DNA of 28,821 nucleotides from a virus (Duplodnaviria > Caudoviricetes), in the IMG/VR virus record IMGVR_UViG_3300040985_001430, positions 1-28,821 of that record. The stretch is one strand, 5' to 3'. Shown here piece after piece: positions 1-28,760 of the stretch. How positions within the stretch are numbered: the first letter of the stretch is position 1; every line of letters begins with the position of its first letter. The position numbers and the translations under genes were made by a program. Below the pieces are notes generated by a model. The model saw only the letters and a program-made list of their open reading frames with translations. It was not told where the DNA came from and did not search any database.

Positions 1-836
1 TTTTTATATTGAGAAGCTATCTTAATGTTATTTATTGTATCCTCTCTAGTAATAGCTTTGTACTCCTTCTCTATTTTAGGAAAGACAATGAAACATCTTC
101 TAGAAAATCCCCTGTCAAAAAACGACATAAGTTTCTCATTAGCTAGCTCGTCTTTCATCAATCATTTTAAAGATGAGTGTACAAGCATTGTTTGAGGCAC
201 TCATTTAACACCATAAGCAATCTTAGCTCATTGAGTTATCTTTGCATTATTATCTCATATATCATATATCTCTTTAATAGTCTGTAGAAAGGTTGCTCTT
301 ACATCATTACTTCTTGCTGAGATATAGTCTATAAACTCAGAAGATGAGAAATGAAAAGATCAAACTTTAGCTCTTTGATACTCAACACGCATCGCATACA
401 GTCATTCCATAGTAGCCTCTGAAGTCTGATCAATAAGGTATCTTGGCTTATTTTCGCTTAACCATTTGCCCTGCTGGCCTTTAGTAGTTCAATGTTCTAA
501 TGATTCAAGTTCTAACTCTTTAGTTCTATCCTCTATATATTTAGTCTTTCTATCTTCAAGTATTTGATATGTATCTTTTAAAGCATCTTTTAAGTTCTTT
601 AAAGGCTTATCTTTTCATGCTGAAGAGGGCATAAAAGTTATGCCATATATATTAAGAGGACATCCAACAACATCTATATCTGAATCACTGATTTTAACCC
701 TATTAAAACATACCAATTTACTACATTCTATATTCAAAGTCAATAGTAATGACTCAACTGGAACTCTTGGATTTAACGGAATTAAATAATTATACAAGAT
801 TTCTTTTGCGTAGTTTGGTATGTTTTTTAGATTCAT
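1..836 (-). CDS. Putative replication NTPase/helicase (DUF3987/YfjI-like), 3'-truncated by the window edge
   Basis: Open from ATG 836 to the window start when TGA=Gly. Contains PLNIYGITFMPSSA-G(TGA)-KD, a degenerate Walker A, then TSEATMEGL, FSSSEF and DRGFSRRCFIV, which resemble DUF3987-type motifs. Family call is from recalled motifs. Confidence 0.6.
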
Positions 837-849
837 ATTTGTTTTATTA

Positions 850-962
850 TTTTAATAAGCTGACTACAATTTGTAAAGACCCTAAGAATAAAAAATATAC
901 TTATTGTGCATTGTAATCAGCTTATTAAAAAAAAAGTATATTCATAGTTTGGGCTTTACAAA
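850..962 (-). promoter_or_regulatory. Structured 5' leader of the NTPase gene (three interleaved inverted repeats)
   Basis: 850-870 pairs with 910-930 (20/21), 870-882 with 951-962 (one bulge), and 894-902 with 934-942 (9/9). Confidence 0.55.
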
Positions 963-965
963 GCC

Positions 966-994
966 ACATTAGCACATCAGATTGTTTTTAGCAA
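966..994 (-). promoter_or_regulatory. Putative leftward sigma70-type promoter
   Basis: Minus strand reads TTGCTA-17 nt-TAATGT with TG at the extended -10 position. Predicted start near 960. Confidence 0.4.
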
Positions 995-1040
995 ACATAT
1001 AATATTGATAACTATCAAAAAAGTGGTGTTTTTATTATTA

Positions 1041-1294
1041 ACCAACTTTTAAAAACTCGGAAAAGCTCGGAGGTCAATCTGGTAGCGGCGATAGGGTTAA
1101 CTTTTACCATTTACCACGTTTTGTAATAGATATGTATTTATATATTTAAAAAAAGAGAGGAAAAAGGAAGAGAGAATATATATATATATATATATATATG
1201 TATATATTATATTATTTATATATATTATTACTAACTGTTGCACCTTCCGAGCTTTTCCACATGCTTGGAAAAGTTGGTAAAAGGTAAAAGTTGG
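1041..1294. repeat. Origin-like region: inverted repeat pairs flanking a (TA)n/AT-rich core
   Basis: GGAAAAGCTCGGAGGTCAA (1059-1077) is inverted at 1238-1258, and AACTTTTACCATTTACCA (1099-1116) at 1275-1292. A (TA)n tract at 1176-1199 lies in a core that is nearly all A/T up to about 1230. Confidence 0.6.
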
Positions 1295-1384
1295 ATTAAA
1301 ACATTGTAGTTATGTGTCTCTGTTCACATTCACTGAAGTTGCTTAGCGTTTTTTAATTACCACACATCTGTGATAGTTAAAATA

Positions 1385-1413
1385 TTGATTACTATATAAA
1401 AACATGATATAAT
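1385..1413 (+). promoter_or_regulatory. Rightward sigma70-type promoter with extended -10
   Basis: TTGATT (1385-1390)-17 nt-TATAAT (1408-1413) in a TGnTATAAT context. Confidence 0.7.
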
Positions 1414-1419
1414 TAGCAC

Positions 1420-1590
1420 ATGATAGAAGAAGCAAGTGATCAAATGAAGATAGTACAAATTTCAGCAGTGTCTGATAAAGCATTTTATATGTTAACTGCT
1501 GCATGACATGTGTATTATTGATACAGAGACCCTGATGAGAGACATGAATGAGAATATAAATATAAATGTATATGTACTGAAATGCACTAA
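1420..1590 (+). CDS. Hypothetical protein, 56 aa, probably leaderless
   Basis: MIEEASDQMKIVQISAVSDKAFYMLTAAGHVYYGY... under code 25. ATG is 6 nt after the -10 box. Confidence 0.55.
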
Positions 1591-1678
1591 GATACAACAA
1601 ATTTAGGATACATTCCACTCTATTCCTTTACATTTGCAGCGATATAGATATAATTGAAGAAAATTTAAGCGAGATTTT

Positions 1679-2113
1679 ATGGCTACACTAGGAAGACCTA
1701 CTAAGTATCGACCCGAAATGTGTGATAAGGTTATTGAACTTATGAAGGAATGAGCTTCTTTAGTTGAAGTGGCATGAACTTTAGATATTGATGAGACAAC
1801 TTTACATGATTGGAAAGCCAATAATAAAGAATTTTCCAAGTCCATAAAACGATGAATTCGGCTTTCTGAAGCGTGGTGGCAGCGTATGTGAAGAGAGAAT
1901 TTATTTGAATCACCTGACTGAATGAGATTTAATTATACAGGCTGGTATATGAATATGAAGAACAGATTCGGATGGGCTGATAAACAAGAGATAGAACAAA
2001 AAACATTAAGTGTTGCTGTAACTGTTGAAGCAGAACAAGCAAGCTTAGTAGCTAAACAATTACTAAATGACTGAGGAGCAACTCCAAGTGATAAGACAGA
2101 CGGCTCAAGCTAG
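1679..2113 (+). CDS. terS: Terminase small subunit, 144 aa
   Basis: [32 protein letters not shown]...TLHDW (HTH) and [12 protein letters not shown]. Overlaps the terL start. Confidence 0.85.
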
Positions 2114-27090: not shown

Positions 27091-27363
27091 TTACTTAGTA
27101 AATTTAATTCATTTTCTGTGGTAATCTCAATTCCTTGGAGATTCTAATGCTCATAAATCTTTAATTATGTGTTCATTGTAATGATCTATCTTCTCTCTTA
27201 GGCACTGTAATCATTCTTTGGCATGTAGGCGAGCTGTTTCTATGTCTCCCTCGTCTATGTTGTCTAGGATCATTTGAAGACGTCCTAAGAGGGCGTTAAA
27301 TGAATTTCAACAAATATCTGTAATCTTGTGTTCTAGTGATAAGTCTTTGTGTTTATATTCCAT
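27091..27363 (-). CDS. Hypothetical protein, 90 aa
   Basis: MEYKHKDLSLEHKITDICGNSFNALLGRLQMILDNIDE... Confidence 0.65.
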
Positions 27364-27378
27364 AGTTTTTTATTTAGT

Positions 27379-27555
27379 TTATACATCGTTAGCTCTTGCC
27401 CTCATCTCATCCATAACCCCTTGAAGCTTTGCAGCCTTAGCTCTTTCTCAATCTTTGAGATGCTTGTCTAAGATAGCTTGAAGCTCTCTCATGGTTTCTT
27501 CGTTTTGGATTTCTAGCAGTTGATAATCAGCTGCTATAATTAGTCTGTCTGTCAT
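27379..27555 (-). CDS. Hypothetical helical protein, 58 aa
   Basis: MTDRLIIAADYQLLEIQNEETMRELQ... Confidence 0.6.
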
Positions 27556-27557
27556 AA

Positions 27558-27761
27558 TTATTTGTTATTAGGATTTTTTATAAGGCTTTGCAATGCTCCC
27601 TTACAGTTATCACAACATGATAGATTATCATTATTAACTGTTGTTACAGGGTTTCTAATATCTCCCCACTGATTAGATAGATCGTCACATATAAAACACA
27701 TTATTCAGAACTTTTCTCAATAGACTGTTGTATCCCCTTTTGATGTTATTAGTTTTGCCAT
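27558..27761 (-). CDS. Hypothetical zinc-binding protein, 67 aa
   Basis: CFICD...CCDNC. Confidence 0.6.
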
Positions 27762-27764
27762 AAT

Positions 27765-27941
27765 TTATTTAGTTAAATCAGTTATATATTTCCCTGTAAG
27801 AAGAGCTAGGCAAGCTACTGGTCAGTATTCTGAGTGTCATAGTATATCACATATTCATCTGGTAGCTGTTCATATTATTAGTATTATTGCAAGGTCTGTT
27901 AGCAGTGCATCTGGGTTTATTGATATAGGTTCTTTTTCCAT
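27765..27941 (-). CDS. Small hydrophobic hypothetical protein, 58 aa
   Basis: DALLTDLAIILIIGTA...GPVACLALLTG. Confidence 0.5.
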
Positions 27942-28106
27942 TTAGTTATTTAATTTAAGTGATCTAAGCACATTCTTTATAATGCTTTTTAAAACAGACT
28001 TCTGAGGATCTTTGATGTTTAGTTCTATGAAATTATATAGTTCTTGTTCTAGTTCTAGTTGTCTTTCTTTAGATACGTTTGTTAGTCATCATGTTGCTGG
28101 TGTCAT
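27942..28106 (-). CDS. Hypothetical protein, 54 aa
   Basis: MTPATGGLTNVSKERQLELEQELYNFI... Confidence 0.55.
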
Positions 28107-28111
28107 AGTTT

Positions 28112-28474
28112 TTATTTAGTTAAATGTTTAATATAGCTATCTAGGAGAAAACATTTTTTTCAATCACTAATGCTTTTAATGTTCTTATTTCTATATAGAA
28201 TTTTTTTAACTTTTTTAATGTTCGCTGAGTCTTCAAGTGTGTCTAGGTATATAAAATAAATATTGTACCCCTGTTTATCAAAGCCTTCTATTATTTTTGG
28301 CACAATTTTCTCTACTTGTTTTAAGCTAGGTTTTTTAATATACTCAATAGTTAAACTTTTTATTTCTCAATATGCTTTGCTTCAGGAGTCGCTCATATCT
28401 GCTCAGTTCATAAATCCATTTACGCTTATATCTCATCAGATGATTATAAAATTAGCCTTAAAATATTCTTCCAT
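28112..28474 (-). CDS. Hypothetical protein, 120 aa
   Basis: MEEYFKANFIIIGGDISVNGFMNGADMSDSGSKAYGEIK..., open only under TGA read-through. Confidence 0.6.
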
Positions 28475-28480
28475 AATTTA

Positions 28481-28627
28481 TTAGTTAATTTCTTTAAAAA
28501 CAGTTTTAGTACAATAGATACATGCCTTCTTATAGCGTGTAAACTTTCAAGGTGTCTTCATGCTTCAATAAATCCATATATGAGAACATGTCAATTGTTG
28601 CCAGAATCTTCTTAGCTTGTTTATCAT
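28481..28627 (-). CDS. Small Cys/His zinc-binding protein, 48 aa
   Basis: LTCSHIW...CIYCTK, TAATG-coupled to the upstream ORF. Confidence 0.55.
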
Positions 28628-28760
28628 TAGTAGCAGTTAGTTTTATAGTCGTAAATCTCTTCTTTCGACATTAAGCATTTATTAGTTATATAACAGTAAT
28701 ATAGTTTTTTACATTTTGGAGTCATATCTTCTACATACTCCATAGAATACCATATTAGAA
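28627..28760 (-). CDS. Hypothetical protein, probably 5'-truncated at the contig end
   Basis: Frame open from the adapter junction: ...MEYVEDMTPKCKKLYYCYITNKCLMSKEEIYDYKTNCY*. Confidence 0.4.

What the first reader, a model, noticed from the sequence alone, without database searches (positions are those of the whole stretch)
1..28760. Phage genome with genome-wide TGA-to-glycine recoding (code 25), probably infecting Gracilibacteria or Absconditabacteria
Seen: TGA sits at invariant glycines in unrelated proteins on both strands. Examples are terminase PPRH-TGA-KS and GVG-TGA-SIT-TGA-K-TGA, RNA ligase EKLD-TGA-SN and E-TGA-FVV, HNH Y-TGA-TGA-RGI and DND-TGA-NY, and endolysin YAS-TGA-RT. Every gene I called ends in TAA or TAG, and Trp uses TGG. 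Known: UGA=Gly is the code of Gracilibacteria and Absconditabacteria (SR1) in the Patescibacteria/CPR, and few of their phages are described. Inference: replication, structural and lysis genes are all recoded and no suppressor tRNA is in the window, so the phage matches a recoded host. It does not look like a phage using recoding only as a late-gene switch on a standard-code host.
Basis: partly seen in the sequence, partly recalled or inferred. Interest (0 to 1): 0.95.

Follow-up and report, generated by a model that had tools for sequence, protein, structure and literature searches.

The report
Marine phage reading TGA as glycine
This partial marine phage genome has the usual stop codon TGA where related proteins have glycine in nearly all its genes, so it likely infects Gracilibacteria, tiny bacteria with that altered code; such phages are already described, and the freshest detail is a predicted two-shape RNA switch in front of its capsid genes.

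Summary
Observation confirmed. Under code 25, 56 genes cover 93% of the contig; TGA is 518 of 658 glycine codons and occurs in 51 of 56 genes, on both strands. With TGA masked, its homologue columns score glycine +69 and tryptophan -84. In 18 recoded relatives TGA trades with GGN 80 times and never with TGG. CGA/CGG columns score as arginine, not as the tryptophan of Absconditabacterales, so BD1-5 Gracilibacteria are the likelier host. No spacer or prophage link was obtained; the host is inferred. The contig is an incomplete, likely short-tailed phage from seawater. A complete 37-kb relative has no TGA-reading tRNA, which supports host-side decoding. Code-25 phages are published (PMC10746230, PMC13059738), and this scan has noted them before on other DNA (33 findings): a new member of a known kind. 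Side finding: the leader of the likely scaffold gene (7105-7200) has two mutually exclusive predicted folds, one with a terminator-like hairpin, kept in two close relatives and echoed without sequence likeness in the 37-kb relative; the scan has noted similar leaders elsewhere.

The parts
1..28760 (.). Partial tailed-phage genome read in code 25 (TGA = Gly)
   Evidence: classed linear, CheckV 41%; an independent contig runs 517 nt past 28760
3..836 (-). Primase-like replication gene, cut by the contig end; 8 TGA
   Evidence: phrog_2135 E 2.4e-18
1679..2113 (+). Terminase small subunit (ATG start chosen at 1679)
   Evidence: phrog_309 E 2.3e-22; homologues
2067..3455 (+). Terminase large subunit; 20 TGA
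   Evidence: PF03237 E 8.6e-21, phrog_38 E 7e-119
4691..6475 (+). Likely portal protein; 35 TGA
   Evidence: position after terminase; a low-confidence model (pLDDT 44) hits mainly podophage portals, best E 5e-5, TM about 0.2; no Pfam or PHROG hit
7105..7200 (+). Predicted two-state RNA leader. Fold A: stem 7109-7156 plus terminator-like hairpin 7170-7192 and T tract. Fold B: 30-pair rod 7116-7183 that takes the hairpin's 5' arm
7218..7988 (+). Likely scaffold protein (acidic, directly before the capsid gene; no meaningful family hit)
   Evidence: position and composition only
8018..9217 (+). Major capsid protein; 20 TGA
   Evidence: phrog_267 E 6.7e-26
10437..12176 (+). Virion structural protein; 46 TGA
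   Evidence: phrog_1645 E 3.9e-36
12196..12831 (+). Head-tail adaptor of the SU10 (short-tailed phage) family
   Evidence: PF24175 E 2.5e-9, above cut-off
13240..18840 (+). Three large genes (651, 629, 578 aa; 56, 51, 52 TGA), likely tail nozzle and two ejection proteins, named by position only
   Evidence: 27-32% identical counterparts in the same order in G001; no family hits
19365..20979 (+). Minor tail protein and laminin-G-like lectin protein
   Evidence: phrog_8780 E 7.7e-19; PF13385 E 2.6e-14
24040..24573 (+). Endolysin, VanY-like peptidase; 6 TGA
   Evidence: phrog_6523 E 2.9e-17; PF02557 below cut-off
25324..25914 (-). RNA ligase family protein; 15 TGA
   Evidence: PF09414 E 9.4e-15
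9431..10084 (+). HNH-type endonuclease (further HNH genes at 12831-13229 and 23337-23861)
28761..28821 (+). Not phage DNA: looks like a sequencing adapter (label recalled, from no call)
   Evidence: sequence printed; an independent contig matches up to 28760 and goes on

Best explanation
The contig is part of a tailed phage genome in which TGA stands at glycine positions throughout, and it likely infects a bacterium that already reads TGA as glycine, most likely a marine BD1-5 Gracilibacterium. Shown: TGA is 79% of glycine codons, on both strands, and trades only with GGN. Known: Gracilibacteria read UGA as Gly (proteomics, PMC4032931) and lack release factor 2 (PMC6851277). Inferred: the phage borrows the host's tRNA-Gly(UCA) from the start of infection, needs no code switch, and could not make whole proteins in a standard-code cell (the median gene would stop after 20% of its length). 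Inferred: TGA rose above GGN through AT pressure. Odds: TGA = Gly 0.99; code-25 host about 0.9; BD1-5 rather than Absconditabacterales about 0.75.
For:: 49 TGA columns in four families score G +69.2, W -83.8; 19 TGG columns W +55.9; 4 CGA columns R +2.4, W -8.1; 2 CGG columns R +2.1, W -4.0; in 18 relatives the 20 TGA columns hold 140 TGA, 80 GGN, 140 other, 0 TGG; the 9 TGG columns hold 100 TGG, 62 other, 0 TGA; a 93%-identical portal swaps TGA and GGN at 10 of 43 glycines and keeps 6 of 6 TGG; 51 of 56 genes recoded (91%), close to the 90% reported for code-25 phages of code-25 hosts and above the 26-71% of switchers; TGA share 73% on the minus strand, 80% on the plus strand; the primase-like gene has 8 TGA; complete relative G001 (85% TGA) has only tRNA-Met and tRNA-Asn and no release-factor hit. 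Arg usage per 10,000 (AGA 314, CGT 16, CGA 12) is nearest to the low-GC BD1-5 genomes (AGA 295-341, CGU 9-30, CGA 1-7); holders are seawater metagenomes.
Against: No direct host link: the code-25 terminase pattern found 6 GTDB contigs, none of them Gracilibacteria or Absconditabacteria, and no spacer search against such genomes could be run. The genome is incomplete, so a TCA tRNA could lie in the missing part. The CGA/CGG test rests on 6 columns, and one CGA column is mostly glycine in homologues (HNH position 10, 31 of 53). AGA preference follows from low GC alone, and the phage (33.5% GC) is richer in GC than those hosts (21-29%). Lack of Shine-Dalgarno sites (0 of 47 starts) does not single out a host. 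No peptide data.
Confidence: 0.85

Rival explanations
1. The host is an Absconditabacterales (SR1) bacterium, which also reads TGA as Gly, and the phage simply uses few CGA/CGG codons.
For: Arg codon use also overlaps SR1 (AGA 231-321). Two terminase relatives, P0006 and P0050, have R at 3 of 4 and 4 of 4 invariant Trp columns, as expected of SR1-coded phages, and P0006 branches near the query. Most predicted SR1 phages are code 25, most predicted Gracilibacteria phages are not.
Against: SR1 reads CGA/CGG as Trp. Here no CGA or CGG column is a Trp column; TerS CGA 58 is R in 105 of 119 homologues and CGA 11 is K or R in 109 of 119; all 19 scored Trp codons are TGG.
Confidence: 0.12
2. The host uses the standard code (for example a marine Bacteroidota lineage with little Shine-Dalgarno use) and the phage brings its own tRNA-Gly(UCA) in the unsequenced part, switching the code during infection.
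For: The contig is incomplete. A code-25 phage with its own tRNA-Gly(TCA) exists.
Against: Replication and small minus-strand genes are as recoded as virion genes. Two records with terminal repeats (G001, G003) have no TCA tRNA even at a lowered threshold and no release-factor hit.
Confidence: 0.06
3. TGA is tryptophan (code 4), as the public protein records of this very terminase have it.
For: P0001 and P0121 carry W at the TGA positions; 46 of the 120 best terminase hits show W at 3 or more of these columns.
Against: Many of those records also show W where the query has GGN, so they look like automatic code-4 translations of code-25 DNA. At DNA level TGA never trades with TGG (0 of 360 and 0 of 162 cells). 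Trp would be 6.9% of residues and Gly 1.6%.
Confidence: 0.01

Closest known systems
Code-25 phages and prophages of Gracilibacteria and Absconditabacteria (Liu et al. 2023, PMC10746230; parts 1-3 of 7 read, supplements not available)
   Same: Dense in-frame TGA across the genome, large gain in coding density under code 25, almost nothing annotatable under code 11.
   Different: Their hosts come from spacer or prophage links; here there is none. 34 of their 38 Gracilibacteria-targeted phages over 20 kb were not clearly recoded. Whether this contig or its kin are in their tables could not be checked.
Code-25 clade of Borges et al. 2021 (10.1101/2021.08.26.457843; passages read)
   Same: TGA aligned to Gly in terminases; about 90% of genes recoded (91% here); read as matching a code-25 host.
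   Different: Gut phages with Absconditabacteria as predicted hosts; this one is marine with CGA scoring as Arg. Their code-4 and code-15 clades are late-gene switchers on standard-code hosts, which this is not.
RSA-ATP1 of Strigamonas methylophilicida (Bouderka et al. 2026, PMC13059738; passages read)
   Same: Tailed phage of about 39 kb whose portal and terminase are readable only in code 25.
   Different: Freshwater, Absconditicoccaceae host, 60% of ORFs with UGA, carries its own tRNA-Gly(TCA); none seen here or in G001. No sequence comparison was made.
G001 (IMGVR_UViG_3300033153_005162, 37,035 bp, terminal repeats) and contigs L043, L044
   Same: G001 shares terminase (46%), portal (28%), capsid (32%) and three large virion genes (27-32%) in the same order, in code 25. 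L043 and L044 portals are 89% and 93% identical.
   Different: Uncharacterised records. L044 carries another terminase pair and early genes in the opposite orientation.
Terminator/antiterminator attenuators, and P22 scaffolding-gene autoregulation (Wyckoff and Casjens 1985: title seen in a reference list only; mechanism recalled)
   Same: For the leader at 7105-7200: overlapping stems of which one fold makes a hairpin plus U tract and the other prevents it, in front of a likely scaffold gene.
   Different: No Rfam family reaches its threshold; the trigger is unknown; nothing here is tested by experiment.

Membership tests
Genetic code 25 (TGA = Gly) | In-frame TGA aligns to glycine columns, not Trp or protein ends | tested here: met
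Genetic code 25 (TGA = Gly) | Other codons standard | tested here: met
   55 of 60 scored sense codons give the standard residue; the 5 others have at most 7 columns and scores of at most 2.4; CGC had no column
Genetic code 25 (TGA = Gly) | Glycine in peptides at TGA | not testable with these tools
   needs proteomics
Absconditabacterales code (TGA = Gly, CGA/CGG = Trp) | CGA/CGG at tryptophan columns | tested here: not met
   6 columns, all best as Arg in sum, none a Trp column; small sample
Phages of BD1-5 Gracilibacteria | Spacer match or integrated copy in a Gracilibacteria genome | tested here: inconclusive
   one terminase pattern over GTDB gave 6 hits, none in this group; spacers not searched
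Phages of BD1-5 Gracilibacteria | Code and codon use matching the host | tested here: met
   codon-use match is weak because low GC gives the same trend
Late-gene code-switching phages (Borges et al.) | Recoding concentrated in late genes, 26-71% of genes | tested here: not met
   51 of 56 genes; primase-like gene recoded
Late-gene code-switching phages (Borges et al.) | Own suppressor tRNA or release factor | tested here: inconclusive
   none in the window or in 4 related records, but the window is incomplete
Short-tailed (podophage-like) Caudoviricetes | Terminase, portal, capsid, SU10-type adaptor, no tape-measure or sheath gene seen | tested here: inconclusive
   terminase, capsid and adaptor hits; portal model weak; nozzle and ejection proteins named by position only; morphology not seen
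Transcription attenuator | Mutually exclusive terminator and antiterminator folds | tested here: met
   predicted only: -41.3 and -37.1 kcal/mol, no shared pair; hairpin plus T tract
Transcription attenuator | Transcripts end at the U tract, and a signal changes read-through | not testable with these tools
   needs RNA 3'-end mapping or a reporter

The most novel reading that the evidence does not exclude
This is a member of an unnamed family of marine short-tailed phages of BD1-5 Gracilibacteria whose scaffold-capsid operon is gated by an uncatalogued two-state RNA attenuator. The switch keeps its layout (10-pair stem, overlapping long rod, terminator, about 25 nt to the start codon) between phages with only 28% portal identity and unlike leader sequences. 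It would be flipped by a phage factor, possibly free scaffold protein, to dose head proteins.
Probability: 0.35. Interest if true: 0.62.

Novelty: new member of a known kind. Interest (0 to 1): 0.36.

Why it matters
Few viruses of Gracilibacteria are described, and a search for marine podophage-like ones gave 2 listings, neither on this by title or abstract. This contig adds a lineage with no close named phage (best terminase hit 39%, no portal hit among 50,697 records). It shows a practical trap: public records carry this terminase and many relatives with Trp at glycine positions (46 of the 120 best hits flagged). Reading CGA alongside TGA is a cheap way to split the two code-25 host groups. 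The capsid-operon leader, if it works as predicted, is a compact testable RNA switch.

Tried and rejected
Host by prophage: code-25 terminase pattern over GTDB, 6 hits, none in a code-25 lineage. Supplements of PMC10746230 could not be read; they may list this phage or its kin with hosts. Searches of IMG/VR with the capsid, the portal alignment and the 578-aa protein found no relative; the leader's 21-nt hairpin had 0 matches. The first filter for mistranslated homologues used the TGA columns and was circular; it was replaced by a composition filter and by codons read from DNA. Rfam: nothing at threshold. tRNAs at a lowered threshold lie inside genes and none has TCA. Capsid model without alignment useless (pLDDT 32); adaptor had no solved relative by sequence. 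The two-state leader is not general: of 10 scaffold leaders folded, 2 were strong (window, G001), 2 weaker (G003 z -4.6, L010 z -2.3) and 6 showed nothing; the distant relative MW202577.1 has a single rod. Covariation in the three-sequence alignment is not significant (157 of 500 shuffles for fold B; no two-sided change in fold A). No RNA holder listed. Reads were laid only on 14001-28821, so the first half has no read-level check. Eight small-share runs were not used for habitat, bar X4, which was laid. Wyckoff and Casjens 1985 is not held. A search for a described scaffold-leader attenuator gave 0 papers.
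Full report
1. The observation. The window is 33.5% GC. Long open frames appear only when TGA is read as sense: frames of 150 aa or more cover 67.9% of the window, against 9.5% for table 11, 11.7% with TAG as sense and 25.7% with TAA as sense. 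I called 56 genes by hand. They cover 93.4% of bases 1-28760 and hold 518 TGA, 140 GGN and 88 TGG in 8,988 codons. 51 of 56 hold TGA; four of the rest have no glycine and one has three GGN. Terminase, capsid, adaptor, primase-like, HNH, endolysin and RNA ligase families are found on the code-25 translations of 42 genes.

2. What TGA encodes. Three tests agree. (a) Terminase against 74 of the 120 best hits, 46 dropped for W at TGA columns: 873 of 1,479 residues G and 1 W. That filter is circular, so it was replaced. (b) With TGA, CGA and CGG masked and a filter on composition alone, four families were scored: 72 of 116 terminases, 116 of 118 RNA ligases (118 of 150 within length), 119 small terminases (the self-like hit left out) and 53 distinct HNH proteins from 80 loci. 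TGA (49 columns) scores G +69.2 and W -83.8; TGG (19 columns) scores W +55.9; 55 of 60 sense codons give their standard residue. (c) Codons read from DNA of 18 of 26 viral loci (6 duplicates and 2 standard-code loci left out; the search pattern itself fixes TGA at one column): the query's TGA columns hold 140 TGA, 80 GGN, 140 other and no TGG; its TGG columns hold 100 TGG, 62 other and no TGA. In the 93%-identical portal of L044, 7 of 35 TGA are GGN, 3 of 8 GGN are TGA, and 6 of 6 TGG stay. One low-depth contig shows a GGT to TGA change among mostly silent ones. Public records of this terminase carry W at these places; many flagged records also carry W where the query has GGN, which marks them as code-4 mistranslations (inference). 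All 46 fall on one side of the terminase tree with the query and three unflagged rows (support 0.97; FastTree, midpoint root, W masked).

3. What the contig is. It is a fragment: it starts inside a gene, is classed linear, ends in 61 bases that look like a sequencing adapter (recalled), and an independent contig runs 517 nt beyond 28760. CheckV gives 41%, but gives the same to G001, which has terminal repeats at 37 kb, so about three quarters of a 37-40 kb genome is as plausible (inference). Three runs in two studies hold half or more of the sampled words, all seawater or marine; the best may be the source. An SU10-type adaptor, a weak portal model that hits mainly podophage portals and three large genes after the adaptor suggest a short-tailed particle. 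G001 shares the virion module in the same order at 27-46% identity. Named phages are distant: terminase 39% at best, capsid 27%, portal none.

4. How it likely works. Gracilibacteria read UGA as Gly by proteomics (PMC4032931, passages), lack release factor 2 and make peptidoglycan (PMC6851277, passages), which fits the endolysin. The phage's TGA share of glycine is 73% on the minus strand and 80% on the plus strand, and a standard-code cell would stop the median gene after 20% of its length. Code-25 phages of code-25 hosts recode about 90% of genes and switchers 26-71% (10.1101/2021.08.26.457843, passages); here it is 91%. The two related records with terminal repeats have no TCA tRNA, release-factor or integrase hit. 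So the phage likely relies on the host's tRNA. Absconditabacterales also read CGA/CGG as Trp (PMC8629427, passages and part of one supplement sheet). Here 4 CGA and 2 CGG columns score as Arg and none is a Trp column, and Arg codon use is nearest to the low-GC BD1-5 genomes. Against: the sample is small, one CGA column is mostly Gly, low GC alone favours AGA, two terminase relatives look SR1-coded, and no prophage or spacer link was found. None of 47 starts has a Shine-Dalgarno core (8% of background windows do) and 31 of 47 have TAAC upstream (9% background); the paper read on this does not settle it for Gracilibacteria (PMC9297842, passages).

5. Comparison with what is known. Code-25 phages and prophages of both groups are described (PMC10746230, parts 1-3 of 7; its supplements could not be read), and one complete genome with its own tRNA-Gly(TCA) is described (PMC13059738, passages). 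This scan holds 33 notes with the same words in at least 25 genomes, none on this DNA or on look-alikes. The finding is a new member of a known kind.

6. Side finding: the leader before the likely scaffold gene. The stretch 7082-7227 is 90% identical in L043 and L044, against 81-85% for the portal region. It folds at -41.3 kcal/mol into a stem plus a terminator-like hairpin with a T tract, and at -37.1 into a 30-pair rod that shares no pair with the first fold and takes the hairpin's 5' arm. 0 of 200 dinucleotide shuffles reach that second energy, and it ranks first of 521 windows of the contig (next -26.2). Both folds are fully paired in all three sequences (90 of 90 cells each); fold B has one two-sided and two one-sided changes, which is not significant. 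G001 has an unlike sequence at the same place with the same layout (-31.6 and -26.0; 0 of 200 shuffles; second of 672 windows), though there the rod is the more stable fold. Six of ten scaffold leaders tested show no such pair, and the region was picked after seeing its conservation. The best reading is a transcription attenuator for the scaffold-capsid genes (about 0.4); an RNase III or 5'-stability element is the rival. The trigger is unknown. No Rfam match and no paper in one search; the scan has unchecked notes of similar leaders in other phages.

7. Verdict. Observation confirmed, interpretation supported and narrowed, host not shown. Interest 0.36.

Noticed in passing
window 7105-7200; L043, L044; G001 32855-32964: Predicted two-state RNA leader (terminator fold against long rod) before the likely scaffold gene, kept in close relatives and echoed in G001 without sequence likeness.
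   Followed up: partly
L044 2466-5680 against window 1679-3455 and 24647-24868: A relative with a 93%-identical portal has a terminase pair with no match to the window's, a DNA methylase-like gene, and early genes on the same strand as the virion genes; in the window they face the lysis genes. A module swap plus an inversion between close kin. The window's junction is spanned by contigs of two studies.
   Followed up: partly
P0001, P0121 and 45 other terminase hits: Public protein records translate these code-25 genes with Trp at TGA.
   Followed up: yes
P0006, P0050: Terminase relatives with Arg at invariant Trp columns, likely CGA/CGG = Trp; the clade may span both code-25 host groups.
   Followed up: no
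P0004, P0005, P0130: Close terminase (55-57%) and portal (43%) relatives with plain Gly at these columns: either standard-code kin or records already translated in code 25. Their DNA could not be fetched.
   Followed up: no
G001-G004: TGA share of glycine codons ranges from 33% to 85% among four related code-25 records, and falls as CGN use rises.
   Followed up: no
window 837-1678: Long AT-rich stretch between the divergent primase-like and terminase genes, with a TA run and a 24-nt inverted repeat (847-870, 910-933); possible origin or promoter region.
   Followed up: no
window 9195-9330: Three or four stable hairpins after the capsid gene (z -4.9); G001 has a long hairpin at the same place.
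   Followed up: partly
window 8018-9217, about residues 225-335: The capsid protein has a stretch with a weak flagellin-hook IN motif hit, similar in G001; possibly an inserted surface domain.
   Followed up: no
L125 (MW202577.1): Distant relative with similar gene order, no in-frame TGA and no TGA stop in 18 genes, so readable in both codes; a single long hairpin lies before its likely scaffold gene.
   Followed up: partly
window 28761-28821: Likely sequencing adapter left on the contig end.
   Followed up: yes
window 23020-23268: The only gene with glycines but no TGA (3 GGN); not significant among 56 genes.
   Followed up: no
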